Origin: Candidatus Nanohalobium sp.
Lineage (GTDB): Archaea > Nanohalarchaeota > Nanosalinia > Nanosalinales > Nanosalinaceae
Direction: 5' to 3'
Length of the DNA: 11,337 nucleotides
NCBI GenBank assembly: GCA_042216335.1
Contig: JBDGTY010000026.1
Location: 1-11,337 of the forward strand
Part shown: one piece after another, positions 1,504 through 11,337 of the stretch
How positions within the stretch are numbered: position 1 is the first letter of the stretch
Layout of the letters: every line of letters begins with the position of its first letter
Notes under the pieces: model-generated
Database searches by the model: none
Told to the model about the DNA's origin: nothing
What the model saw: the letters and a program-made list of their open reading frames with translations, nothing else
Made by a program: the position numbers and the translations under genes

Positions 1504-2148
1504 ATGCCTTCTAAACAGGAGACACTGTCAGCAATCGAATTGATAGAAGAGCAATTAACGAAACTTAACTGTGAAGTAGAAGAAGAGATCGAACTTGATT
1601 CTGAAAATGGAAAAGTGAGAGGACTATCCTGTAGAAGAGAATATTCAGGACATCCCTTCCAAATATTAACCCTAATCGATGAAGAGGTTCCTTTTTTCGA
1701 AGTGAGGTATGTATTTGACGCCCAGAGTACTATAGCTTCCGAACTTAAGAAAAGAAGTTTAGATACAGAAGAGGTAGAACTAGATAGAGAAGAAGACGAA
1801 GAATACTTTAAGGAGGCTAGAACAAGATTAGTAAGCCTCAACAAATCTGAATTCAGGAAGACACAGAAAGGCCTAATAGAGCGACTTGCCTCAACAGAAG
1901 CTAACTATAGCGTAGAAACCATAGATGATTATGGAATAGAATCTTTCCACTTACAGAAGAAAATATTCCCATTAGAGGAATTCTATAATATCTCAAAATT
2001 AAATAAAGCTATACGGGCAGTTATTAATAAAGGAGTACTAGGCGGAACTTTCGTTGCACATTCATATGAAATAGAAGATTTCTTCTATGAGGAATTAGAT
2101 CAAAAAGAAGAAGTTGAAGATAAGAATGATCTCGGTTATATCGGATAA
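1504..2148 (+). CDS. Hypothetical acidic protein, possibly DUF2299/YbjN-like (type III chaperone fold)
   Basis: 214-aa acidic ORF with a plausible promoter. The beta-strand to helix pattern FHLQKKIFPLEEFYNISKLNKAIRAVIN is reminiscent of DUF2299/YbjN proteins. CDS is well supported, family assignment is weak. Confidence 0.7.
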   Translation: MPSKQETLSAIELIEEQLTKLNCEVEEEIELDSENGKVRGLSCRREYSGHPFQILTLIDEEVPFFEVRYVFDAQSTIASELKKRSLDTEEVELDREEDEEYFKEARTRLVSLNKSEFRKTQKGLIERLASTEANYSVETIDDYGIESFHLQKKIFPLEEFYNISKLNKAIRAVINKGVLGGTFVAHSYEIEDFFYEELDQKEEVEDKNDLGYIG

Positions 2149-2201: not shown

Positions 2202-2345
2202 ATGAGCTTTATTCCAGACAAGATGGTAGATACCTCTTGGAGAGACGAAGAGCGAGAGATAGAAGTATCTGATGAATTCAAAGGGAAGTCTGGCGATGAA
2301 ATTGTGGATGAGATTAGAGAGAAAAATACCATTAAATTAGATTAA
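2202..2345 (+). CDS. Small acidic protein (47 aa), putative VapB-like antitoxin
   Basis: Not in the ORF track. Translation: MSFIPDKMVDTSWRDEEREIEVSDEFKGKSGDEIVDEIREKNTIKLD*. It has a well-placed TATA box, fills the intergenic gap, and KSGDEIVDEIRE resembles the toxin-binding C-terminal helix of archaeal VapB proteins. Confidence 0.6.
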   Translation: MSFIPDKMVDTSWRDEEREIEVSDEFKGKSGDEIVDEIREKNTIKLD

Positions 2346-2784
2346 CTTTGATACTTTTCTCTTTTAGATTCCAACTATCTGTCGTGTGAATTTTATCTAT
2401 TTGTCCTGACGATATAGCTAGTCCTACTATAAGCGAGTCATTGAATTCTGAAGCTATTCTTCCTTTTTCATCGCGGATAAATTCTAGAGCTTCTATAAAA
2501 TCAGAGAGATCTAAATCAACATATACGAACCCATCAAGCAGGTTTTCAAATTCCTCTTTAGCCATATTTCTAGTAACTTCATCATCAAAAGAATAATCTG
2601 ATGTTAAGAAGTCCTTAACTTCTCCAATAATTACCTGATGAGCAACAGGAATCCTATTGTCTGCTGTCTTAACAGAGTTAATTACTTTCTTTGCCTCTTT
2701 ACCTTTGCCAGAAGTATCTGCAACTGCTTCAACAAAAACCGAGGAATCAAAAATTTCTAAAGTACAATCATTCCTATCAGGCAT
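2332..2784 (-). CDS. PIN-domain ribonuclease, VapC-like toxin
   Basis: PIN acidic tetrad pattern: IFDSSVFV, VIIGEV, FNDSLIVGLA, IHTTD. Confidence 0.82.
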   Translation of the reverse strand: MPDRNDCTLEIFDSSVFVEAVADTSGKGKEAKKVINSVKTADNRIPVAHQVIIGEVKDFLTSDYSFDDEVTRNMAKEEFENLLDGFVYVDLDLSDFIEALEFIRDEKGRIASEFNDSLIVGLAISSGQIDKIHTTDSWNLKEKSIKVNLI

Positions 2785-2818: not shown

Positions 2819-3205
2819 TCAGAATCCAGGATCTTTCCTGTTCAGTACTTCCAGATAACTCTCATTCCGGATGTGGATGACTTCAGCGTTGACTTCTATC
2901 AACCTCTCCTTCAGCTCCTTATCATTCGTAGCAATCACATAGTCTCGGGAAATTTCGACCAAGAGGTCGTCCACTGAGCCCTCTCCTTCTGTTTCAAGAA
3001 CCTCAATATCTTTTTTGTCGACGAGTTTTTCGACTAGGTCGCCGTATTTGCCGTCTTCGATTGACTTGGCTTCCTGTACTGCGTCGTCGATTGTGTATAC
3101 CTTGCTGTGAGGGAAGATTCTTTCGAGTTCCTGGAATATGTCGATTGAGTCGAGCTGGAAAGGCGCTGTAAGGAAGTTGGTGTCGAGTATGATTTCGCGG
3201 GTCAT
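2819..3205 (-). CDS. Conserved archaeal PIN-domain protein, Fcf1/Utp24-like
   Basis: IILDTNFL..PFQ...DIF.EL, VDDLLVE and VIATNDKELKERL motifs. This family usually lies between aIF2-gamma and rpoE1. Confidence 0.9.
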   Translation of the reverse strand: MTREIILDTNFLTAPFQLDSIDIFQELERIFPHSKVYTIDDAVQEAKSIEDGKYGDLVEKLVDKKDIEVLETEGEGSVDDLLVEISRDYVIATNDKELKERLIEVNAEVIHIRNESYLEVLNRKDPGF

Positions 3206-3234: not shown

Positions 3235-3257
3235 CTCTCCGCCGTGAGTTGCATGTT

Positions 3258-4175
3258 ATGAAGAGTATCGGTGTTCTGTGGGATGACGAGGTTGAGTGGG
3301 ATAGAGAGAAACCTTTTGATGGTCAGTCAAATGAGTCCTACGGTTATTTTTCTGAAAGGGCTGAAGACCGAGAAGTAAGACTGGTTCAGGCCCAGTATCA
3401 CTGGTATAATGATGGATCTCTGTCTCAGGGCTGGGTTTGCGAGAAAGGTGAATGGAAGAAAGTAGAGGATATTGAACTTGATGGGGTATTCGATAAGTTC
3501 CACTTTGATGAGGATACAAAAGCTCTCAAGAATGAGATTAGTGAGACGATCGGGATACTGAATGACCCGGAGCTGGAAGAGCTGTGCAAGGATAAACTCC
3601 TAACTTATGAGCGATTTCCTGAGAAAATGCCGGAGACAAGGATTTTCTCCGATGACAATGCTCAGGAAATGCTGGAGAAGCACGGCAAGATTGTCTTGAA
3701 GCCTCGTTACGCTTTCGGTGGCAAAGGTATCCACATTGTAGAGAGTGAAGAAGAGATACCGGAAATAGAAGACGAATATATCATTCAGGAGTTTATTGAC
3801 AGCAGCGGAGGCATCGAGGGCATAGTTGAAGAAACGCATGATCTAAGAGGCATAGTAGTAAACGGCGAACTAGAGGCAGGTTATGTCAGGTATAGCGATG
3901 GCGAGATAAGTAATGTAGCGCAGGGAGGCTCACAGGATCCAGTTAGCCCAGAAGAATTCCCTGAGAAGGCTCTGGATCTCATTGAATCTGTTAACGACGA
4001 ACTAGAGTTCAGGCCATGTCTTTTCTCCGTCGACCTTTTCTTCGATGGACAAGGAAATCCTTGGATAGTTGAGCTGAACTCAAAGCCTGGAATAGGTTTC
4101 TACGGTGATGAAGAAATGAAGAAGCAGCTCGTACCGGTGATGGATGGACTAGTAGAGGCCTTCAAACAGCTCTAA
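3258..4175 (+). CDS. ATP-grasp peptide ligase (YheC/D- or RimK-like)
   Basis: DKLLTY, IVLKPRYAFGGKGI, YIIQEFID, HDLRGIVVNG, SNVAQGG and FSVDLFFD...WIVELNSKPG; catalytic motifs intact. ATG at 3258 preferred over TTG at 3249. Confidence 0.9.
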   Translation: MKSIGVLWDDEVEWDREKPFDGQSNESYGYFSERAEDREVRLVQAQYHWYNDGSLSQGWVCEKGEWKKVEDIELDGVFDKFHFDEDTKALKNEISETIGILNDPELEELCKDKLLTYERFPEKMPETRIFSDDNAQEMLEKHGKIVLKPRYAFGGKGIHIVESEEEIPEIEDEYIIQEFIDSSGGIEGIVEETHDLRGIVVNGELEAGYVRYSDGEISNVAQGGSQDPVSPEEFPEKALDLIESVNDELEFRPCLFSVDLFFDGQGNPWIVELNSKPGIGFYGDEEMKKQLVPVMDGLVEAFKQL

Positions 4176-5203
4176 TTTATCATTTCTTTTGCTTCTTCTA
4201 GGTCTTCCGTAAGTCTCTCGGCAATATTCAATCTTATCTCCTTTGCTTTCTCTCTACTAACTTCTTCAGGTATATCCAGGTTCTGTGAGACAGGTGAGAA
4301 TTCTGAAGGGTTAATGCCCATTTCCTCAATGTATTCTCTGACTTCTTCTGACTCAAGGCCTTGCTCTATCGCTTTTTCTGATGCTTTCTTCACTTTCTGG
4401 AATTCTGGCAGTTCTGATCTCTTCTTTTTCTGAACTATCGGTTTGACAGCTTTCACAATTTTGATTACCTCGGTAAGAAGTGTTGTATCTGGGGCTCGCC
4501 ATTCAACTGTCGGGTAGTCCTCCCTCAGTTTTACAGGCGTCCAGACTGCGTTCTCCGGCTGGAAGAACCTCTCAAATCTTTCTGGTTCTATGCCTTTCTT
4601 CTCTGCCTCATTCTCAAATTCTTCGAATAGTTCCTCTCTTTTTTCACGCCATTCAGTGATTGAATCCATGTAGGGCCAGAGCTCTCTCTGTTTGGGGAAT
4701 GCTCCGCAGGCTTTGTGCCTGTAAATTTTGTTTCTGCATCCGTCTGCCAGGTGCTTTCCCTGATATCTTGGCGATGAGTTCATCAGTGCAGAGAGAGGAT
4801 CCATGGCTGTCAAGGTGTTGAGCTGTCTGAGAGAGCCCTCCTTTTCAAAATGGATGTGGAGGCCAGCAGTCCTGCCAGCATGTTTTACTTCAGGACCTAT
4901 TACCTCTTGCTCTATCTGGAATCTTTCAGACTCATATACTTCGACCTCTCCGGAGTTTAGAGGTGTTCCGAGAGGCACAATTCTCTTTCCGTCTTTCTTG
5001 GCGAGTTCTACAAGGATCTCTGTTTTTGATATGGCTTCTTTCAGAAGTTCATCCATGTCTTCGTGCGGTTCTGTCTGTATTTCTATCATCGACCGTGAGA
5101 ATTCCTGTGATGCAAAGTAGACTCTTTCTGCTACCGGCTTGGCGTAGTCAAGTTTTCCTTCTTCGTTTATGACCCAGAACTCCAGTTCGAGGCCCGTCTT
5201 CAA
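4172..5203 (-). CDS. Glutamate--cysteine ligase family 2 (GCS2/YbdK-like carboxylate-amine ligase)
   Basis: GLELEFWVI, EFSRSMIEIQTEP, LGTPL, AGLHIHF, NSSP and PTVEWRAPD motifs. TTG start overlaps the upstream TGA (TTGA) and is preceded by SD AAGGAGG. Confidence 0.9.
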   Translation of the reverse strand: MKTGLELEFWVINEEGKLDYAKPVAERVYFASQEFSRSMIEIQTEPHEDMDELLKEAISKTEILVELAKKDGKRIVPLGTPLNSGEVEVYESERFQIEQEVIGPEVKHAGRTAGLHIHFEKEGSLRQLNTLTAMDPLSALMNSSPRYQGKHLADGCRNKIYRHKACGAFPKQRELWPYMDSITEWREKREELFEEFENEAEKKGIEPERFERFFQPENAVWTPVKLREDYPTVEWRAPDTTLLTEVIKIVKAVKPIVQKKKRSELPEFQKVKKASEKAIEQGLESEEVREYIEEMGINPSEFSPVSQNLDIPEEVSREKAKEIRLNIAERLTEDLEEAKEMIN

Positions 5204-6084
5204 TTTTTATCTTCCTCCTTCATTGCTCGTTCGTGCATTCTCTCTACCAGTCGAAGTATGATGTTTTCTCCTACTGTTTCGTTTATCGCTTTGTAGAGGC
5301 CGAAGGCGCTGTTCAGTTCGAGGACGTAGACGTCTTCTTCAGTTTCTATGACGTCGACACCGCATATGTCGAAGCCTGATGCTTTAACAGCTCTCTTGGC
5401 GGCTTCTTCCATTTCTTCTGTTATCTCGACTTCCTTTCTCTCCCCTCCTTCTGACACGTTGGAGCGCCATTCGTCACCGCTACTGGATCTCTGGTATGCA
5501 TAGACTTCATCCCCGATGACTATCACCCTGTTATCTGTTCCGCCGTGTTCCTTGTATTCCTGAAGGCAGATATCCTGTTTGAAGGCCTTCATAGTATCCA
5601 TAACAGGTTTCAGCTCGTTTTCTGAACTGGCTCTCATCACTCCCTGGCCTCCTGCTCCTCCGATTGTTTTCATTATTATGGGGTATCCTAGATCTTCAGC
5701 GGCATCTACGGCAGTCTCAGGTGAGATGGTGTAGAAGCTGTCCGGGACGTTAACATGGTTCTCTGCCAGAATTTTCATGCTGTAGAACTTGTTATTGGAG
5801 TATGAGAATGACTCATCATCGGACTGTGTCACGACACCGGATTCGTTCAGTACTTCAACAAGGTGTTCCGAAAACAATCTGTCCTGGTCGTTGGTTCTGA
5901 CATACGCGGCATCAAATTCCGTTAGATCAGTGCCCTTGTACAGAACCTTGCTTCCCTCATCACCATGAATGAACTTCAGTCCTTCTACTGGTGCTGCGAG
6001 AACGGAGTCGAAGATTTCATCAGCTTCCTCTATTATTAGCTGGTGAGTGGTAGAGACATCGCCGTATATTATCGCCAGCTTCAT
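5200..6084 (-). CDS. RimK/LysX-family ATP-grasp alpha-L-glutamate ligase
   Basis: NNKFYS, LGYPIIMKTIGGAGGQGV, LQEY, DNRVIVIG, WRSNVSEGG, ICGVDVI and VLELNS. Start moved to ATG 6084 because the track's GTG at 6093 lies inside the SD GAAGGTG. Confidence 0.92.
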   Translation of the reverse strand: MKLAIIYGDVSTTHQLIIEEADEIFDSVLAAPVEGLKFIHGDEGSKVLYKGTDLTEFDAAYVRTNDQDRLFSEHLVEVLNESGVVTQSDDESFSYSNNKFYSMKILAENHVNVPDSFYTISPETAVDAAEDLGYPIIMKTIGGAGGQGVMRASSENELKPVMDTMKAFKQDICLQEYKEHGGTDNRVIVIGDEVYAYQRSSSGDEWRSNVSEGGERKEVEITEEMEEAAKRAVKASGFDICGVDVIETEEDVYVLELNSAFGLYKAINETVGENIILRLVERMHERAMKEEDKN

Positions 6085-6085
6085 C

Positions 6086-6901
6086 TTAGACACCTTCTTC
6101 CTGCTTCAGGGCAGATGACAGGTTTTTGTACACATCCTTACCCGAAACATCGGAGTAAAGCTCCAAGTCAGGATTAGGGTTCAAATCCACTATTTCCTGA
6201 TCTCTTACGAGGACTTCCGCGACACGTGCGCCTAAAGCATTCTTTGCATCCAGAACCATCTCCTTTACATCTCCCGGCACATTGGCATACCTGAGGTTCT
6301 CATCGCTCAGCTCCCAGCCTTCAGAGATATCTTCTAGAGATATTACTTCATCACCTGCAACCAGACATCTGTACTTGCCCCCTTCCGAGTATTCCTGGAA
6401 AAGAAGGAAGTTCTCCCCATAGTCAACCCCTTCAGTGAATGCACCGATACCCTCGACAGTATCTATCTTTTTCTTCTCCACCTCTGCCAGGTCCTCAAAC
6501 TTCCTCGCTATCAAAGGCCCCTTAATATGGTTCTCCAAGTTTCTGGCCGCCTTTTCGTCCGCTACAACGGCCGTCTTGGCCGCTGAAACATTTTTCTCAT
6601 GTAGAACATAGTAGAGATAATTCTTCTTCGCCATAGCAAAGAAAGAAGTTGAGGAATAGTTCACAGGAATCGCTTTCTCCTCAATCATCTCCAGCAAAAC
6701 CCTGCCGAACACAGCATTTTCAACCGGTATCTCAGCGTATACAGTATCAAAACTCTCTTCAAGACCGTTTATCTTCAAGTCCGGTTGCCCATCAATCACC
6801 TGGGGAGAGATTTTCTCCAAGTCAACAGTCTGAACACTCTCGAAGTGCTGATCAAGCTCCTCAGCACACTCGCCACCGTCAGTTATCTTCAGAAGCCTCA
6901 T
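6086..6901 (-). CDS. Divergent RimK-like ATP-grasp protein (probably catalytically impaired)
   Basis: Colinear with the RimK fold (AKKNYLYYVL, AKTAVV, LLFQEY, YRCLVAGDEVI, IVDLNPNP) but key motifs are altered. Start ATG 6901 (or 6907) after SD GGAGG; the track start at 6958 is probably too long. Confidence 0.78.
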   Translation of the reverse strand: MRLLKITDGGECAEELDQHFESVQTVDLEKISPQVIDGQPDLKINGLEESFDTVYAEIPVENAVFGRVLLEMIEEKAIPVNYSSTSFFAMAKKNYLYYVLHEKNVSAAKTAVVADEKAARNLENHIKGPLIARKFEDLAEVEKKKIDTVEGIGAFTEGVDYGENFLLFQEYSEGGKYRCLVAGDEVISLEDISEGWELSDENLRYANVPGDVKEMVLDAKNALGARVAEVLVRDQEIVDLNPNPDLELYSDVSGKDVYKNLSSALKQEEGV

Positions 6902-8450
6902 CTTCATCCCCCTCCGGTTTTTCCTTTTCCCCCGAGAAGCCTTCCGGCTTCCATACACGCGTCAGCTTCTCCTCGGCCGTCCACTCCTCCATGTAGTTCT
7001 CCATGGATTCCGGCGTCGAGTTCTTCAGTATCCTTCCCTTTCTCAGTATCTTTCTCAGCCTGGACTCCAGCGTCTTTGAAAGCTCGTCGTACAGGCTCTT
7101 GTCGCCGTAGATAAGATCGTTCTTGATCCTCCAGTACGCAGTCGTTCCCTTCGGCGCCACGACGATATAACCTCTTTCATGTCCAAAGTCTGCCATCGCA
7201 TCGTAGAGAGTATCATTGTTAACGTAGTATACTCCGCCGTTCGTCCCTGACGGATCGAGGTTGAGTATCTCCTCTCCCTCCACTCCGACTGAGAGCACGA
7301 AGTGGCCTGCGGATGCATCCGGGAATATCTCCGGTTTGTAGAAGTTCGATACTATCAGCGCACCGTCGTTGAACCATGACTTGTATTCATCCTCAAGATC
7401 GGTTATCTTGTCGTATCCTACCCAGGCTGTCCTGACCTCGTTGTTGGTCAACTCCTCGATAGCTTCCATCAGATCTTCCTCTTCGACTCCCTCGCCTTCC
7501 TGGACGTCAGCTTTCTCTCCTATCTCGTGCTGGTCGTGGCGGTAGCCGAAGATCTCCAGCGCCATCTCGGCCGAGGCCGGCCCGCAGTAGGAAGGATCCT
7601 GTGCGACGAAGTAGCTGGTTATGTCCTCCAGGGTTTCAAGGTCGCTCTGCGTCCTCTTCACCCTCATAGGCGACTCCATAAGCTGGCTGTTCGGAGTAAG
7701 GAGGGTGTAGCCAGAATCCGTGTTGACTGAGGTGGAGAAGAGCGATATCTCCTTGATCTCCCCTGTTTCGCCGTCAACCTTGACCTCCTCTCCCTGGCGC
7801 ACCAGGTGCGAGTTCTTCAGGTAGAAGCCGGCGGCTATGTTGTGGAACAGATCCTTCAGCGAGTAGAACGTCAGGGCTGCGACCATGAAGGCGAAGGCCC
7901 ATGTAGCCGCATTCAGGAGCTGGTTCAGGAAAGTGTAGCCTATCTGCAGCTGAGCCAGAACTACCTGGAAAAGTATTACGTACATCAGTGCCTTGGCCGC
8001 CGCTGCTATAAGGTTGGAGGCACTTCTTGAAAGCCCGAGCTCCCTCAAGTAGTTGTTGACGCCGACAGTGCTGAGGAAGTCCCTGAAAACCCTTGTGACT
8101 ATCCTGATAAGCACTACACCGAGCACGCCCAGAAGTAGAGCAGATGCTATCCTTGGGCTGCTACTGACCAGGTTGCTGAAGAAGCTCTGGCCTATCCCGG
8201 CATTAAGATACAGTATAGCTCCGGAGATGACTGCTCCATCCAGGATGTAGCCCGCAAGTCGTATGTTCTCCTCCCTTCTCTCGATGTCCTTCTTGGTAAC
8301 ATCCTCAGCACCCCGGATCCAGAAACGTCGTATGAAGACTTTGACCAGCTTCACCAGCAGGTGGCCGAACACCAGAATAAGCAGAGCGCCGAGTACGCGG
8401 AGCATCGGCCCTGAAGACAGTCCTGGCAGCAGTTGGGATAGAAATGTCAT
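6879..8450 (-). CDS. MscS-family channel fused to a C-terminal papain-like cysteine peptidase (C39/phytochelatin-synthase-like)
   Basis: N-terminal hydrophobic helices with two repeated 'R(V/I)..ALL' TM units and MscS core motifs (SLKDLFHNIAAGFYL, GEEVKVDGETGEIKEISLFST, TPNSQL). C-terminal domain has Q284-DPSY-C289GPAS, G-H383-F and NL-D399-P. Confidence 0.87.
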   Translation of the reverse strand: MTFLSQLLPGLSSGPMLRVLGALLILVFGHLLVKLVKVFIRRFWIRGAEDVTKKDIERREENIRLAGYILDGAVISGAILYLNAGIGQSFFSNLVSSSPRIASALLLGVLGVVLIRIVTRVFRDFLSTVGVNNYLRELGLSRSASNLIAAAAKALMYVILFQVVLAQLQIGYTFLNQLLNAATWAFAFMVAALTFYSLKDLFHNIAAGFYLKNSHLVRQGEEVKVDGETGEIKEISLFSTSVNTDSGYTLLTPNSQLMESPMRVKRTQSDLETLEDITSYFVAQDPSYCGPASAEMALEIFGYRHDQHEIGEKADVQEGEGVEEEDLMEAIEELTNNEVRTAWVGYDKITDLEDEYKSWFNDGALIVSNFYKPEIFPDASAGHFVLSVGVEGEEILNLDPSGTNGGVYYVNNDTLYDAMADFGHERGYIVVAPKGTTAYWRIKNDLIYGDKSLYDELSKTLESRLRKILRKGRILKNSTPESMENYMEEWTAEEKLTRVWKPEGFSGEKEKPEGDEDEASEDN

Positions 8451-8494: not shown

Positions 8495-11337
8495 TCATTC
8501 CGTCGAGTTTATGCTGCCGTGGCCGATTAGCCGCCATCGACTGCCTACCTGCCGTGAAATAGCCACTCGATCGCCTTCCTCCACGCAGACCGGCATCTTC
8601 AGGTCAAGCCTCACATGCTTGCCTGCCTGTGTTACGACTCCTGCTGTCTTCGTGGTACCCAGGTTAAGCATCAATGGTTCGTGCTCCTTGATGTTGTCGA
8701 TCTCCTCATCGCCCTCAGAGCCGACAAGGCTGTCCATCAGTTCTGCCTCGATCTCGACAGTATCAGTGACCTCCGGAAGCTCACCCTCGAGGCCCAGAAC
8801 GTTGCCTCCAAGGCCGTCGGACTTCACAATCGAAGGATCAAGGTCTGTCTCGACTCCGAGAAGTCCTCCAGGCCTTCCCTTCTCAACAGGAGAGTCTCCC
8901 TGGATGATGCTCTGAATCTCCGTAGTAACCTTCTCGAACTTTTCACCATCCTTCCTGATACCCGGCTTCATCTCGACCCTGTCGCCGGGCTCAAGCTCCC
9001 CTCTTACGAGGCTTCCACCGACAACTCCACCGTTCAGATCTTCCGGCGAAGTTCCCGGCTTATTGGTGTCGAAGGAGCGTGCGACAAGCATCCTCGGATC
9101 CGACTCAAGGTCTCTATCTGGCGTTGGAATTTCTTCATCGATCGCCTCAAGAAGTGCGTCGATATTGACCTCGTGCTGAGCACTGATAGGGATAATCGGT
9201 GCGTCCTCAGCAACCGTGCCTTCAACGAACTCCTTGATCTGCTCGTAGTTCTCCTTCGCCTCTTCCTCGGAGACCAGGTCGATCTTGTTCTGTGCTATTA
9301 CGATGTTTTCGATGCCGACGATGTCAAGTGCTGCGAGGTGTTCCCTTGTCTGGGGTTGTGGGACTTCCTCGTCAGCTGCGACCAGAAGTACTGCACCGTC
9401 CATGATGGCTGCTCCGGAAAGGACGTTTGCCATCAGTGTTTCGTGGCCCGGAGCGTCGACCAGTGAGACAGTTCTCTCCTCTTCACCGTCTCCTTCGACG
9501 TTCAGTTCCCCGTCTTTGCTGTAGTATGTGATGTCGGCGTATCCAATCCTGATAGTAATCCCTCTCTCCAGTTCCTCGCTGTGCTGGTCAGTCCATTCAC
9601 CGGAGAGCGCCTGTGTTAATGTAGTGTTGTGGCATAGTATTCCTCCATATCCTGCGAAGAAGTTATGGTTGTCAGGGACAGTAAGGTCTACTATTGGCCC
9701 TTTATTTCTCTTTCTAGTTTTTTCTGTGACTTCTTCAAAAGTGATAGCCGAATTAAAAATCCATGAGATTTCTTCAAGTGCTTCGATGCTTTTCTCTATC
9801 TTCTCTTCCGAAATTCTCTTGCATGCTTTGAAAGCAGCAGCCCTCTTCTTACTTCCTTTTTCCCCATCTATGTATCTCTGTGCCTGAGAAGTACTAACCC
9901 CCATTTGATCCGCAATTTGCTCTGAGGTTATACTGGCCATATCCATTAGATACTTGATATCATCCGAATCGTTAGTGGATGATATTTTATCTCTCTCAGT
10001 TTTGATAGCGTTTTCTATCTTGTTGAACATCTGGGGCGTGATCCGGCCTTTTTGCCGGGCTTCTTCAAGTCCTTTGTACCAAGATCTTTCTTTTAGGCCA
10101 TTTTTTGACCCTGTGTTGTTCCTCTTGGATCGGAGCAGTTGAAGTGCTTCATCCAGTTTCTCAAAGTCTATGGGTATTGAGCCGTTAGATGAGCAGCCAG
10201 ATTCTCTGATAGTTTTCTCCAGTTTGGATTTCTTTTCTTGAGGAGTAGCACCTATTTCTTTCTGGAACCTTTCCAGGTTCTGACTGCCCGAAATAGTGAG
10301 AGTGTAATACGTTCTCTCTTTAGGTGATGCAGAATTGGTTGCTTTGGAAACTGTTTGGCCTAGTTTAGGCCTTATTCCAAATTCCTGTAGGAGGTAGGAT
10401 ATCCTGTTGATATTCTCACTGTTGGCCTGTGTTAAAGCCACCTGGCCTGATTTAGGGTTTATATCGGCCTCAAAGCTGAAGAACCAGTTCAAGAACGTCT
10501 TTTTTAGATTTTTTGGAAGCGAGTGGACTATGGATGGTATACCAGCTTCCCTACTATTTCCTGTCTTTAGACCAAACTTAGCTTGTAAGTACTGTGAAAA
10601 GCCACGCGAGTTAATTCTGTAGTCTTTATCACTTATCTTCTGCACATCTAGAGAAATTCCTTCAAGGTATTCGAAAACCTGATCCCTCATCTCTACATGA
10701 TCTCTCTGGCATATCTCAACACGGTTCTGCTTAAGCACTCCTTCAGCAGTTAAAATAGCCAAGAACTTTACAAAATCCTCATCTGCCTCAATCTTCTCGA
10801 AACGTGACTGTCTATAGTCCTTTCCACTTTCAAAAACAATAATAATTTCATCTTCCCTTATTTCGGGACAGTTATCCTCCAGATAGTTTTCAATCTTTTT
10901 CGCTGCAGCTTCACTGAACTCTCTGTCTGCAGATATGCTCTTGAGATACGTATCATAGGATATGCCGATTTCATCAGCAAACTGTCTCTTTGAAAGCCCC
11001 AGTATTTTTCTTGCCAGTTCATACTGCTCATAGCTGCTGAAGTCGCTGAAATTATCTGTCTGATCTTTAAGACTTCTTAAATCCTGATGTTCTATTACTT
11101 GGTTCTCCTCTTCTAGTTTATTCCTCCAGTCTTCTTCTGCCTCCACGCCTCTATCTTCCAGAGGTATTTCTTGAGGAACTGCTACAAAATCTCCTTCCTT
11201 AACGTCACTGCTCTGTACCCATTCAATAGAGCCATCTCTATTTACAAGCAGAGGATGCGACCTTGTCAAGGTGACTTCCCTGCCATTGGAAGTTTCTATT
11301 TTATTCAAATCTCCATCGTAGTCCTGTACATAAACTT
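8495..11337 (-). CDS. eif2g: Translation initiation factor 2 subunit gamma (aIF2-gamma) precursor containing an intein; 5' end outside the window
   Basis: C-extein TTLTQALSGEWTDQHSEELERGITIRIGYA, DAPGHETLM, PQPQTREH, QNKIDL, GGVVGGSL and RVAISRQVGSRWRLIGHG. The frame stays open to the window edge (...VYVQDYDGDLNKIE), so the TTG at 11308 is not the start. Confidence 0.97.
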   Translation of the reverse strand, partial: VYVQDYDGDLNKIETSNGREVTLTRSHPLLVNRDGSIEWVQSSDVKEGDFVAVPQEIPLEDRGVEAEEDWRNKLEEENQVIEHQDLRSLKDQTDNFSDFSSYEQYELARKILGLSKRQFADEIGISYDTYLKSISADREFSEAAAKKIENYLEDNCPEIREDEIIIVFESGKDYRQSRFEKIEADEDFVKFLAILTAEGVLKQNRVEICQRDHVEMRDQVFEYLEGISLDVQKISDKDYRINSRGFSQYLQAKFGLKTGNSREAGIPSIVHSLPKNLKKTFLNWFFSFEADINPKSGQVALTQANSENINRISYLLQEFGIRPKLGQTVSKATNSASPKERTYYTLTISGSQNLERFQKEIGATPQEKKSKLEKTIRESGCSSNGSIPIDFEKLDEALQLLRSKRNNTGSKNGLKERSWYKGLEEARQKGRITPQMFNKIENAIKTERDKISSTNDSDDIKYLMDMASITSEQIADQMGVSTSQAQRYIDGEKGSKKRAAAFKACKRISEEKIEKSIEALEEISWIFNSAITFEEVTEKTRKRNKGPIVDLTVPDNHNFFAGYGGILCHNTTLTQALSGEWTDQHSEELERGITIRIGYADITYYSKDGELNVEGDGEEERTVSLVDAPGHETLMANVLSGAAIMDGAVLLVAADEEVPQPQTREHLAALDIVGIENIVIAQNKIDLVSEEEAKENYEQIKEFVEGTVAEDAPIIPISAQHEVNIDALLEAIDEEIPTPDRDLESDPRMLVARSFDTNKPGTSPEDLNGGVVGGSLVRGELEPGDRVEMKPGIRKDGEKFEKVTTEIQSIIQGDSPVEKGRPGGLLGVETDLDPSIVKSDGLGGNVLGLEGELPEVTDTVEIEAELMDSLVGSEGDEEIDNIKEHEPLMLNLGTTKTAGVVTQAGKHVRLDLKMPVCVEEGDRVAISRQVGSRWRLIGHGSINSTE
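9626..11337 (-). mobile_element. Intein with LAGLIDADG homing endonuclease (N-terminus outside the window)
   Basis: Block B TRSHPLLV, block F IVDLTVPDNHNFFA, block G LCHN followed by +1 Thr (Asn codon 9626-9628). LAGLIDADG-like helices FLAILTAEG and FLNWFFSFEAD. More AT-rich than the extein. Confidence 0.95.

What the first reader, a model, noticed from the sequence alone, without database searches (positions are those of the whole stretch)
6879..7625. Peptidase domain fused to MscS resembles phytochelatin synthase more than a standard C39 leader peptidase
Seen: YFVAQDPSYCGPASAEMAL, then LIVSNFYKPEIF..SAGHF, ILNLD, YYV...TLYDAM and ERGYIVV. From memory of the family, phytochelatin synthases have F.TQ.EPAYCG.ASL, a strand ending Y.R..F.QTG.GHF, LILD, WV...L.EAM and RG(F/Y). 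Triad C289/H383/D399 and oxyanion Q284 are intact. The Cys-His spacing of 94 lies between typical C39 and plant PCS spacings. PCS enzymes are gamma-Glu-Cys dipeptidyl transpeptidases, which fits a GCS2 ligase in the same operon (inference).
Basis: partly seen in the sequence, partly recalled or inferred. Interest (0 to 1): 0.78.

Follow-up and report, generated by a model that had tools for sequence, protein, structure and literature searches.

The report
Channel-tethered cysteine peptidase, between C39 and PCS
A tiny salt-loving archaeon has a pressure-valve membrane channel whose inner end is an intact cysteine peptidase; this peptidase resembles both phytochelatin synthase and bacteriocin-leader (C39) peptidases without belonging to either, and it probably cuts a small acidic peptide made by the ligase genes that follow it.

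Summary
Bases 6879-7625 (minus strand) encode residues 276-523 of a 523-aa protein: an MscS-type membrane part followed by a papain-fold domain with Q284, C289, H383 and D399.

The phytochelatin synthase (PCS) resemblance is real but not exclusive.
- For PCS: family profiles hit only Nostoc PCS (Alr0975) among solved chains (E 0.0017). Foldseek ranks it first (8e-8).

So this is a separate, narrow family lying between C39-like peptidases and PCS.

Context: the gene is near-universal and single-copy in its phylum (64 of 70 genomes). It is followed by a dead and a live RimK-type ligase. There are two cassette types:
- intact Q/C/H plus R426, with GCS2 adjacent in 13-14 of 32 genomes;
- all four residues lost, with a MATCAP metallopeptidase adjacent in 20 of 32.

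Best reading: a channel-anchored hydrolase for the ligases' small peptide. A true PCS reaction is unlikely but not excluded. This scan has already noted the system on other genomes. My literature searches found no paper describing it.

The parts
6879..8450 (-). Whole gene: 523-aa MscS-type channel fused to a papain-fold peptidase (P0001)
   Evidence: ORF and translation. Pfam PF00924, PF05552 and PF13529. Homologues of 47-88% identity with the same architecture.
7812..8408 (-). Membrane part, residues 15-213: five long helices, the last being the MscS pore helix
   Evidence: Full-length AlphaFold model has helices 15-44, 53-82, 84-129, 143-168 and 172-213 (mean pLDDT 69.5). PF05552 covers 88-133. 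MscS chains align to 110-258.
7668..7853 (-). MscS beta-domain, residues 200-261
   Evidence: PF00924, 33.9 bits, residues 200-261. Strands 222-253 in the model. No match to the usual C-terminal alpha/beta domain of MscS was listed.
7614..7667 (-). Conserved linker, residues 262-279 (K265, D270, T273, L274 kept in both cassette types)
   Evidence: Conservation in A1, A2 and the split analysis. pLDDT is low in both models.
7152..7613 (-). Papain-fold peptidase domain, residues 280-433
7599..7601 (-). Gln284, oxyanion-hole position
   Evidence: Aligns with Gln64 of Alr0975. Conserved only in the active type.
7584..7586 (-). Cys289, nucleophile
   Evidence: Present in the 29 rows of 50 that carry the full Q-C-H-D-R-G-Y signature, and in 4 further rows that have lost His383.
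7302..7304 (-). His383, general base
   Evidence: His-x15-Asp-Pro.
7254..7256 (-). Asp399 (invariant, followed by near-invariant Pro400)
7173..7175 (-). Arg426 of the 'ERGY' motif. Present in 29 of 29 active rows and 1 of 21 inactive rows. Candidate substrate-carboxylate binder.
   Evidence: Aligns with the Arg of 'TRGF' in Alr0975.
6936..7151 (-). Conserved C-terminal extension, residues 434-505 (W440, R441, Y448, K459, R470 and others): two helices
   Evidence: Invariant columns. Helices 459-474 and 481-491, with pLDDT about 80-85 in the domain model. Kept in both cassette types.
6882..6935 (-). Variable acidic tail, residues 506-523
   Evidence: Alignment A1, last block. pLDDT < 50.
6086..6907 (-). 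Degenerate (dead) RimK-like ATP-grasp gene. Its likely ATG at 6905-6907 overlaps the end of the channel gene by 29 bases.
   Evidence: Translation. TIGR00768 only 26.5 bits. None of the ATP-grasp motifs is kept at >= 90% across 46 pairs.
5200..6093 (-). Intact RimK-family alpha-L-glutamate-ligase-type ATP-grasp gene
   Evidence: PF08443 at 1.4e-35. TIGR00768 at 152.9 bits against a cut-off of 143.4. Lys, G.GG.GVM, RSN..GG.R, D and E.N are kept at >= 90% in 46 loci.
4172..5203 (-). GCS2/YbdK-type carboxylate-amine ligase, an accessory of the type-A cassette
   Evidence: PF04107 at 51.1 bits. TIGR02050 at 60.1 bits, below its cut-off of 176.4. Adjacent to the channel gene in 13-14 of 32 type-A genomes and 0 of 32 type-B genomes.
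3249..4175 (+). Third ATP-grasp gene (YheC/D-like), convergent with GCS2
   Evidence: PF14398 at 5.6e-14 and PF02655 at 2.7e-10. An ATP-grasp ORF sits on the opposite strand at this position in L001-L004, L006 and L007.

Best explanation
The stretch encodes the cytoplasmic end of a membrane protein. The protein has five helices, the MscS pore helix and the MscS beta-domain, but the usual MscS alpha/beta vestibule domain is replaced. In its place are an intact papain-fold cysteine peptidase (Gln284, Cys289, His383, Asp399) and a conserved two-helix tail.

The peptidase belongs to the C39-like/PCS assemblage of clan CA. It passes only the Peptidase_C39_2 model and forms its own narrow family, found almost only in this fusion.

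I propose that it is the hydrolase (possibly a transpeptidase) of a small amidoligase cassette. The co-transcribed live RimK-type ligase works with a dead paralogue and, in this genome, with a GCS2 ligase and a third ATP-grasp enzyme. Together they build a short acidic, glutamate-containing peptide or peptidyl tail, which the channel-tethered peptidase cleaves.

Arg426 and Glu/Asp421 disappear together with the catalytic residues. They probably hold a free carboxylate and a free amine of a small substrate, which would be the PCS-like aspect of the domain.

Shown here: architecture, fold, catalytic residues, gene linkage and the two cassette types. Inferred: the substrate, the direction of the reaction, the cytoplasmic location (from MscS topology) and any coupling to channel gating or glutamate release.
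For: - Architecture and fold.
- Narrow family: 63 clusters at E <= 0.001 among 1.84 billion representatives, nearly all about 500 aa.
- Near-universal and single-copy: 64 of 70 genomes of the phylum, 27 of 28 high-quality ones; one copy in the window's own genome.
- Linkage: a RimK-type hit lies downstream in 51 of 53 loci. The order channel, dead grasp, RimK holds in 49 of 53 loci, including Iainarchaeum-, Aenigmatarchaeota- and Asbonarchaeaceae-labelled MAGs. Genes overlap or abut in the window.
- The live ligase keeps all ATP-grasp motifs; its neighbour keeps none.
- The Q-C-H-D-R-G-Y signature is intact in 29 of 50 rows. In the other 21, C and/or H are lost, mostly together with Q and R.
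- The dead form comes with a MATCAP-family HExxH peptidase. In the fetched loci it is present in 10 of 21 inactive and 0 of 29 active. In the phylum survey it is adjacent in 20 of 32 type-B and 0 of 32 type-A genomes.
- Both types occur within seven genera. The window's congener G047 is type B with MATCAP and without GCS2.
- Precedent for a RimK-type ligase working with a trimming protease: RimK/RimB and RloABC (passages of PMC10092738; PMC12239564).
- C39-like DUF3335 domains have been linked to peptide-ligase-type partners (passage of PMC10318531).
Against: - No substrate is known and nothing was assayed.
- On the domain tree the active/inactive split is a single change, so the MATCAP and GCS2 associations may reflect two cassettes inherited or moved as blocks, not repeated co-evolution.
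- In the phylum survey, types were assigned from bit scores of two models, not from residues. Four genomes (G033, G034, G043, G061) differ by only 8-15 bits.
- Five type-B genomes show no MATCAP, one of them 99% complete (G063). Nine type-A genomes carry a strongly matching MATCAP-family gene elsewhere in the genome.
- The domain is strongly acidic (13 K+R against 38 D+E), which does not favour long poly-glutamate as substrate.
- The dead type keeps the domain well conserved, so the domain also has a non-catalytic role that this explanation does not specify.
Confidence: 0.55

Rival explanations
1. One reading: the domain is a true PCS-type enzyme. It takes a gamma-Glu-Cys-X peptide such as glutathione, made with the help of the GCS2 ligase and an ATP-grasp enzyme. 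It forms a gamma-Glu-Cys acyl-enzyme and then either hydrolyses it (like Nostoc PCS) or transfers it (phytochelatin synthesis).
For: - Alr0975 is the only solved chain hit by the family profiles and is first in Foldseek.
- 152-156 residues align structurally with Alr0975, against 135-137 for ComA.
- The motif 'AM..RG[YF]' is shared.
- R426 and E/D421 are conserved only when the triad is intact.
- GCS2 is adjacent only to the intact form: 13-14 of 32 against 0 of 32.
- The RimK copy and the third ATP-grasp gene also pass PF02955, the glutathione-synthetase ATP-grasp model.
- Recalled, not verified here: in Alr0975 the RGF arginine and a nearby aspartate hold the gamma-Glu head group (Vivares et al. 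2005, which I could not open).
Against: - PF05023 is below its cut-off and is the weakest of three clan models across 50 members.
- The acceptor-site Lys-Tyr is absent, and the Arg173 position is Lys. R152K abolishes AtPCS1 activity according to the abstract of PMC3855540.
- GCS2 is missing from at least 18 of 32 type-A cassettes, which carry a P-loop protein with or without an AstE/AspA hydrolase instead.
- The GCS2 here is far below every glutamate-cysteine-ligase model cut-off.
- The constant partner is a RimK-family ligase that passes TIGR00768.
- The nearest non-family relatives are C39_2/C70 proteins.
Confidence: 0.12
2. A C39-type leader peptidase. The domain cleaves a double-glycine-type leader from a ribosomal peptide and hands the cargo to the channel for export, as the peptidase domains of PCAT/ComA transporters do.
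For: - C39 (PF03412) matches 40 of 50 members, best E 4.4e-09.
- His-x15-Asp-Pro matches C39-scoring proteins P0180 and P0181.
Against: - In the window protein PF03412 is below its cut-off (14.8 and 16.3 bits against 22).
- No ABC transporter is in the cassette.
- The genes overlap or abut, so there is no room for a precursor-peptide gene inside the cassette. I did not search elsewhere in the genome for double-glycine leaders.
- The constant partners are non-ribosomal amino-acid ligases.
- An MscS pore is not known to pass peptides (general knowledge).
Confidence: 0.08
3. Mainly a non-catalytic module. The papain-fold domain replaces the MscS vestibule as a structural, ligand-binding or docking domain (for example for the ligase pair). 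Catalysis is dispensable or vestigial.
For: - 21 of 50 rows, and about half of the phylum's genomes, carry a version without Cys and/or His. These versions still keep about 50 positions conserved, including D399, P400, G427, Y428, W359, F360 and the C-terminal helices.
- RloB of Pseudomonas is a membrane protein with an inactive transglutaminase-like domain in an ATP-grasp operon (PMC12239564).
Against: In the window, and in 29 of 50 rows, Q, C, H, D and R are all strictly kept, which argues for selection on catalysis in this type. The dead type has a different peptidase next door.
Confidence: 0.1

Closest known systems
Nostoc sp. PCC 7120 Alr0975 (NsPCS), the prokaryotic 'half' phytochelatin synthase (MEROPS C83, Pfam PF05023; PDB 2BTW, 2BU3, 6TH5)
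   Same: - Papain fold with Gln/Cys/His/Asp.
- Only solved chain found by the family profile (E 0.0017, whole domain).
- First in Foldseek (8.4e-08, about 20% identity).
- Shared 'Y-C-G', 'N-[FY]-x-[KR]-x-E-I' and 'AM...RG[FY]' strings.
- Both are cytoplasmic enzymes suited to a small peptide.
   Different: - PF05023 is below its cut-off.
- His-Asp spacing is 16 rather than 18, and Asp-Pro rather than Asp-Val.
- Cys-His spacing is 94 rather than 113.
- Acceptor-site Lys206/Tyr207 are replaced by Asn/Gly, and Arg173 by Lys.
- It is fused to a channel, has a conserved helical tail, and is partnered with RimK-type ligases.
Peptidase_C39_2 (PF13529) and small C39/C70-type stand-alone peptidases
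   Same: - The only Pfam model passed (26.9 and 29.8 bits against 24). It matches 45 of 50 members.
- The nearest proteins outside the family carry PF13529 with PF03412, and in most cases PF12385.
- His-x15-Asp-Pro is shared.
- The stand-alone proteins P0166, P0168 and P0186 also share 'RG[YFI]'.
C39 double-glycine leader peptidase domains of ABC transporters (ComA, PCAT1, LahT)
   Different: No sequence-profile hit at E <= 10. PF03412 is below its cut-off in the window protein. The domain here is about 20 residues larger. There is no ABC transporter and no precursor-peptide gene in the cassette.
Pseudomurein endoisopeptidase PeiR (C71; PDB 8Z4H, 8Z4N)
   Different: No sequence-level match was listed. 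It is a lytic cell-wall enzyme, and these archaea are not known to have pseudomurein (general knowledge).
RimK/RimB(/RimA) and RloABC systems of Pseudomonas
   Same: A RimK-type ATP-grasp ligase is paired with a peptidase that trims glutamate chains. RloB is a membrane protein with a dead transglutaminase-type domain. The rlo genes matter under hypo-osmotic stress (passages of PMC10092738 and PMC12239564).
   Different: The peptidases there are retropepsin-like aspartic enzymes. There is no channel fusion, no dead ligase paralogue, and the systems are bacterial.
MscS family of mechanosensitive channels
   Same: The pore helix and beta-domain are matched (PF05552, PF00924; E. coli MscS chains at E 2.4e-10 with the profile).
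   Different: The C-terminal alpha/beta domain that builds the cytoplasmic cage is replaced by the peptidase and helical tail. Gating and conductance are untested.

Membership tests
Phytochelatin synthase (PF05023 / MEROPS C83) | Score at or above the curated Pfam cut-off (24.9 bits) | tested here: not met
   14.3 bits for the whole protein and 16.6 bits for the domain. 24 of 50 family members match at E <= 0.1, best 1.7e-06. A six-frame scan of the window's own genome gives 11.3 bits, at this gene only.
Phytochelatin synthase (PF05023 / MEROPS C83) | Catalytic Cys-His-Asp with oxyanion Gln | tested here: met
   Q284, C289, H383 and D399 align to the Alr0975 motifs. HMMER places His one column off because the spacing differs. 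This feature is common to the whole clan.
Phytochelatin synthase (PF05023 / MEROPS C83) | Second-substrate (acceptor) site residues strictly conserved in PCS: NsPCS Arg173, Lys206, Tyr207 (AtPCS1 Arg152, Lys185, Tyr186) | tested here: not met
   The residues are named in PMC3855540. By the alignment the window has Lys372, Asn404 and Gly405. The type-A consensus has no Lys-Tyr at that place.
Phytochelatin synthase (PF05023 / MEROPS C83) | C-terminal 'RG[FY]' strand with the conserved Arg | tested here: met
   'ERGY' 425-428 aligns to 'TRGF'. R426 is present in 29 of 29 active rows and 1 of 21 inactive rows. That this Arg contacts gamma-Glu in Alr0975 is recalled, not verified.
Phytochelatin synthase (PF05023 / MEROPS C83) | Deglycylation or transpeptidation of glutathione | not testable with these tools
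   Needs an enzyme assay.
Peptidase C39 (PF03412), double-glycine leader peptidase | Score at or above the curated cut-off (22 bits) | tested here: not met
   14.8 and 16.3 bits in the window protein. 40 of 50 members match at E <= 0.1, best 4.4e-09.
Peptidase C39 (PF03412), double-glycine leader peptidase | N-terminal domain of an ABC exporter, with double-glycine precursor genes nearby | tested here: not met
   The domain is the C-terminal part of an MscS-type protein. The cassette genes overlap or abut, leaving no small ORF. The rest of the genome was not searched for leader peptides.
Peptidase C39 (PF03412), double-glycine leader peptidase | Fold of the C39 peptidase domain | tested here: met
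Peptidase_C39_2 (PF13529) | Score at or above the curated cut-off (24 bits) | tested here: met
   26.9 bits (whole protein) and 29.8 bits (domain). 45 of 50 members match, best 9.5e-13.
MscS channel family | Pore-lining TM helix and beta-domain | tested here: met
   PF05552 at 29 bits and PF00924 at 33.9 bits. MscS chains at E 2.4e-10.
MscS channel family | C-terminal alpha/beta domain forming the cytoplasmic vestibule | tested here: not met
   No such Pfam match at E <= 0.1. MscS chains align only up to residues 258-271. The peptidase occupies that position.
RimK/RimB-type ligase-plus-trimming-peptidase system | RimK-family alpha-L-glutamate ligase | tested here: met
   TIGR00768 at 152.9 bits against a cut-off of 143.4. 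PF08443 at 1.4e-35. Motifs conserved in 46 loci.
RimK/RimB-type ligase-plus-trimming-peptidase system | Retropepsin-like RimB protease; ribosomal protein bS6 as target | tested here: not met
   No aspartic peptidase is in the cassette. Archaea lack bS6 (general knowledge). The eS6 gene seen upstream in related loci is unrelated to bS6.
Pseudomurein endoisopeptidase C71 | Sequence membership in the family | tested here: inconclusive

The most novel reading that the evidence does not exclude
The seven peptidase domains hanging under a tension-sensitive MscS pore would form a PCS-like acyl-enzyme machine for small gamma- or alpha-glutamyl peptides made by the cassette's ligases (RimK type, GCS2, a third ATP-grasp). 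By making and breaking, or transferring, these peptides at the channel mouth, the cell would convert osmotically active potassium glutamate into silent oligomers and back, or vent the products through the pore. That would be an enzymatic osmotic buffer wired directly to a pressure valve. Lineages that lost the thiol active site would have a MATCAP-type metallopeptidase take over the cutting step. This parallels the two unrelated tubulin detyrosinases (vasohibin and MATCAP) that reverse the ATP-grasp ligase TTL; that parallel is recalled knowledge.
Probability: 0.12. Interest if true: 0.85.

Novelty: new variant of a known kind. Interest (0 to 1): 0.55.

Why it matters
- The gene is one of the few near-universal, single-copy, lineage-typical genes of Nanohaloarchaeota, which have genomes of about 1 Mb and depend on hosts. 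It also occurs in other DPANN archaea. No function is known for it.
- Fusing a peptidase to a mechanosensitive channel is an architecture I found in no paper. My searches were made, and they cover only the held library.
- Placing the domain between C39-like peptidases and PCS points the first experiments at small non-ribosomal peptides and a thioester intermediate, not at leader peptides.
- The two cassette types give a natural complementation test: intact thiol peptidase with GCS2 or a P-loop protein, against dead domain with MATCAP.
- If the link to glutamate peptides and channel gating holds, it would be a new way of tying osmotic relief to metabolism. It would also give a prokaryotic context for MATCAP-family enzymes.

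Tried and rejected
The queue was full each time and the job never ran, so nothing can be said about binding.
- No RNA holder was listed for window 4172-8450.
- The search for related loci in metagenome contigs for the stand-alone relatives P0168 and P0166 found nothing. Their gene neighbours remain unknown.
- Papers not held: Vivares et al. 2005 on the Alr0975 structure and Iyer et al. 2009 on amidoligases. What I say about their content is recalled.
- Searches for the gamma-Glu contacts of Alr0975 gave nothing usable.
- I could not obtain PCS family sequences through the tools. The PF05023 control genomes gave no hit over the cut-off. So no profile-profile comparison of this family against PCS, C39, C39_2 and DUF3335 profiles was run.
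- The hypothesis that the 344-aa protein of cluster c10 is a divergent GCS2 was rejected: hhalign probability 0.2. It is a P-loop NTPase of the MobB/CbiA type.
- His-Asp spacing is not a clean discriminator between C39 and PCS. The C39-scoring protein P0184 has His-x17-Asp-Pro.
- CDC123-like ATP-grasp link to the upstream aIF2-gamma gene (PMC4431377): I found no support. The aIF2-gamma neighbourhood is absent from the distant loci L048, L050 and L053.
- The idea that the channel's own acidic C-terminus is the RimK target was dropped, because the last residues are not conserved.
- ESM Atlas scores were below 0.9 and count only as leads.


Full report
**What is there.** Window 6879-8450 (minus strand) is one open frame of 523 codons. 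The finding's coordinates, 6879-7625, cover residues 276-523 and the stop codon.

The N-terminal half is MscS-like. It matches PF05552 (29 bits, residues 88-133) and PF00924 (33.9 bits, residues 200-261). A profile of 32 homologues hits E. coli MscS chains at E 2.4e-10. A full-length AlphaFold model (mean pLDDT 69.5, pTM 0.40) shows five long helices up to residue 213, a beta-domain at 222-253, a poorly predicted linker, and then the peptidase domain at about 280-433.

MscS chains align only as far as residues 258-271. So the usual C-terminal alpha/beta vestibule domain of MscS is replaced. By MscS topology the peptidase should be cytoplasmic; this is an inference.

**Organism and spread.** Named homologues are from Nanohaloarchaea (Ca. 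Nanohalobium and relatives). With the peptidase domain alone (residues 263-445), an exhaustive HMMER pass over 1.84 billion representatives finds only 63 clusters at E <= 0.001, and nearly all are about 500 aa, meaning the same fusion. In the held genomes of the phylum, 64 of 70 have the gene, and 27 of 28 high-quality ones do. It is generally single-copy: the second matches listed lie at contig ends and look like split pieces. The window's own genome (1.02 Mb, 96.2% complete) has one copy. One-per-species loci also include MAGs labelled Asbonarchaeaceae, Iainarchaeum and Aenigmatarchaeota.

**Is it PCS-like or C39-like?** I built a domain alignment (A2) of 50 sequences covering residues 263-505, and a model from it (mean pLDDT 80.6, pTM 0.82).

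*For PCS*
- Profiles A1 and A2 hit only one non-MscS protein among 177,635 distinct PDB sequences: Alr0975, the Nostoc PCS-like enzyme. The E-values are 0.011-0.018 and 0.0017-0.0028, and the match spans the whole domain from the Gln/Cys motif to 'RG[FY]'. No ComA, PCAT1, LahT or HlyB chain appears even at E <= 10.
- Foldseek's first eight rows are Alr0975 entries (8.4e-08 to 1.2e-06, 19-22% identity). PeiR follows at 1.8e-06, ComA at 9.1e-06 and PCAT1 at about 4e-05.
- 152-156 residues superpose on Alr0975, against 135-137 on ComA.

*Against*
- Pfam passes only Peptidase_C39_2 (26.9 and 29.8 bits against 24). Phytochelatin (14.3 and 16.6 against 24.9) and Peptidase_C39 (14.8 and 16.3 against 22) both fail.
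- Over the 50 members, C39_2 matches 45 (best 9.5e-13), C39 matches 40 (4.4e-09), Phytochelatin 24 (1.7e-06) and DUF3335 13.
- The nearest proteins outside the family are 150-240-aa proteins carrying PF13529 with PF03412, and in most cases PF12385. None carries PF05023 alone. The second of these searches is limited to proteins that share short exact words with the query.
- The ESM Atlas lists only C39-type clusters. All scores are under 0.9, so these are leads only.

**Motif by motif, the domain is a mosaic.**
- The Cys motif fits both families.
- The His motif is His-x15-Asp-Pro. This matches C39-scoring proteins P0180 and P0181 and the stand-alone relatives P0166, P0168 and P0186. Alr0975 has His-x17-Asp-Val. 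P0184, also C39-scoring, has x17, so spacing alone does not decide the question.
- The end motif 'L..AM...RG[YF]-strand' is as in Alr0975. P0180 and P0181 have 'F..RW' there instead.
- The residues that PMC3855540 names as strictly conserved around the PCS acceptor site are NsPCS Arg173, Lys206 and Tyr207. R152K and K185R abolish AtPCS1 activity (abstract and passages). Here those positions are Lys372, Asn404 and Gly405, by the alignment.
- The 2023 classification of papain-like enzymes places C39, C39_2, DUF3335, BtrH_N, C70 and PCS side by side in one cluster (passages of PMC10318531).

My verdict is that this is its own narrow family between C39-like peptidases and PCS. It is formally a Peptidase_C39_2 member, not a PCS and not a double-glycine C39.

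**Gene context.** In the window the genes overlap or abut. The channel gene's stop is at 6879-6881 and the next ATG is at 6905-6907. After that, stop and start codons overlap down to a GCS2 gene (4172-5203), whose 3' end overlaps a convergent third ATP-grasp gene (3249-4175).

Across 53 loci, a RimK-type hit follows the channel gene in 51. The order channel, ATP-grasp, ATP-grasp holds in 49. The exceptions are two contig ends, one locus where my ORF caller found no intact channel frame, and L042, which has none.

The second ATP-grasp passes the RimK family model (TIGR00768, 152.9 bits against 143.4). It keeps the Lys, Gly-rich loop, RSN..GG.R, Asp and E.N motifs at >= 90% in 46 loci. The first ATP-grasp keeps none of them, so it is a dead paralogue.

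**Two cassette types.**
- In A2, 29 of 50 rows read exactly Q-C-H-D-R-G-Y at positions 284, 289, 383, 399, 426, 427 and 428. The other 21 have lost Cys and/or His, mostly also Gln (to Glu/Asp), and Arg426 in 20 of 21. D399, G427 and Y428 never change.
- Residues conserved only in the intact type are Q284, P286, C289, G321, N369, P373, H383, S401, E/D421, R426 and E494.
- About 50 positions, including the helical tail, are conserved in both types.
- On a tree of the domain, built with the trait's own columns removed, the split is a single change.
- In the fetched loci the accessory genes sort with the type. GCS2 is in 12 loci, all intact. A P-loop MobB/CbiA-like protein is in 14 of the typed loci (a fifteenth, L052, was too short to type), all intact, some also with an AstE/AspA hydrolase. 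A MATCAP-family HExxH protein (PF08014 in 9 of 10 members, best 3.7e-25) is in 10 loci, all inactive.

**Phylum-wide survey.** This gave 32 type A and 32 type B. Four calls rest on margins of only 8-15 bits, and I did not inspect residues in these genomes.

| Gene | Type A (32) | Type B (32) |
|---|---|---|
| MATCAP within about 6 kb on the same contig | 0 | 20 |
| MATCAP anywhere in the genome | 9 (strong matches, on another contig or more than 100 kb away) | 27 |
| GCS2 adjacent | 13 (14 counting G057) | 0 |

Both types occur within seven genera. G047 is in the window's own genus, with aIF2-gamma 89% identical. It has a type-B domain that is only 42% identical to the window's, a MATCAP gene 4 kb away, and no GCS2. 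Because cassettes may move as blocks, these are linkages, not independent evolutionary trials.

**How it most likely works.** The constant core is a channel-tethered papain-fold domain, a dead RimK-like protein and a live RimK-like ligase. The variable slot always adds either more ligases or another hydrolase.

When the thiol active site is dead, a different peptidase sits beside it. MATCAP is a carboxypeptidase family by its Pfam name. When the thiol site is intact, no such gene is adjacent. This argues that cutting the ligases' product is an essential step, and that in the window's type the fused domain does it.

RimK enzymes add alpha-linked glutamates to a C-terminus or make poly-alpha-glutamate, and RimB trims them (PMC10092738). 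The Pseudomonas rlo operon combines an ATP-grasp enzyme, a membrane protein with a dead transglutaminase-type domain and glutamate-chain-cutting proteases, and it affects survival under hypo-osmotic stress (PMC12239564).

The PCS-like traits suggest a small substrate with free termini rather than a long poly-glutamate or a ribosomal leader. Those traits are the single Arg426 and acidic 421 that travel with the triad, and a strongly acidic domain (13 K+R against 38 D+E). This is inference. That the RGF arginine and a nearby aspartate bind the gamma-glutamyl head group in Alr0975 is my recollection of Vivares et al. 2005, which I could not open. Coupling to channel gating or glutamate efflux is speculation.

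**Novelty and prior notes.** Searches of the held library found no description of an MscS-peptidase fusion. The searches were made, plus passages of 10.1101/2023.07.03.547478 and PMC6393860. Subscription journals and bioRxiv supplements were not searchable.

This scan has already noted the same system on at least eight other genomes. Those notes name RimK/RimB and RloABC as closest known. They are AI notes, and I formed my reading before seeing them. The RloABC paper was a lead taken from them.

- a test of the PCS claim;
- the all-or-none Q/C/H/R signature;
- the type-A/GCS2 against type-B/MATCAP linkage across the phylum.

**Verdict.** The domain is a new variant within a known kind of enzyme, in an undescribed architecture. 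A true PCS reaction on glutathione-type peptides remains possible, at about 0.12 by my estimate, but it is not the best-supported reading.

Noticed in passing
window 8495-11335 (minus strand, runs off the window): The aIF2-gamma gene is interrupted by a large intein carrying a LAGLIDADG homing-endonuclease domain and helix-turn-helix domains (PF14890, PF14528, PF01381). In L001-L004 the tblastn match to this protein spans only about 1.15 kb, suggesting those relatives lack the intein.
   Followed up: partly
window 2819-3205 and 2332-2784 (minus strand): Two PIN-domain genes (PIN_9 and PIN) lie between the cassette and the RNA polymerase Rpb7-like/S24e genes. The PIN_9 gene recurs at this position in many related loci (cluster c7).
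   Followed up: no
window 1504-2148 (plus strand): A 214-aa ORF with no Pfam family at E <= 0.01. Not examined further.
   Followed up: no
L011:9275-10306 and 14 other loci (alignment A4): A conserved 340-370-aa protein on the opposite strand, found only beside the intact-peptidase cassettes that lack GCS2. It has an N-terminal TRAM/S1-like part and a P-loop NTPase of the MobB/CbiA/DUF1611 type, with 63 invariant columns. Its function is unknown. It is often paired with an AstE/AspA-type hydrolase.
   Followed up: partly
Genomes G003, G004, G005, G023, G024, G055, G056, G058, G059: A second, strongly Pfam-matching kind of MATCAP-family gene (E 1e-46 to 1e-53; G059's copy, on a small contig, 2.9e-19). 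It lies far from the channel gene in type-A genomes and differs from the weakly matching cassette-linked kind in type-B genomes.
   Followed up: no
G037:C63:4743-5381: The channel-peptidase gene of this genome has an in-frame TAA and a low score, so it may be a pseudogene or an assembly error.
   Followed up: no
L001-L039, upstream of the channel gene: Conserved upstream order in Nanohaloarchaea: photolyase, TrkA, TrkH (opposite strand), ribosomal protein S6e, aIF2-gamma. The K+ uptake genes lying next to a mechanosensitive-channel cassette may be meaningful or may just be shared gene order. This order is absent from the distant loci L048, L050 and L053.
   Followed up: partly
L017, L022, L029, L037, L046, L051: A second, ordinary-length (284-296 aa) MscS-type gene lies on the opposite strand a few kb upstream of the fusion gene (cluster c1, minus strand).
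   Followed up: no
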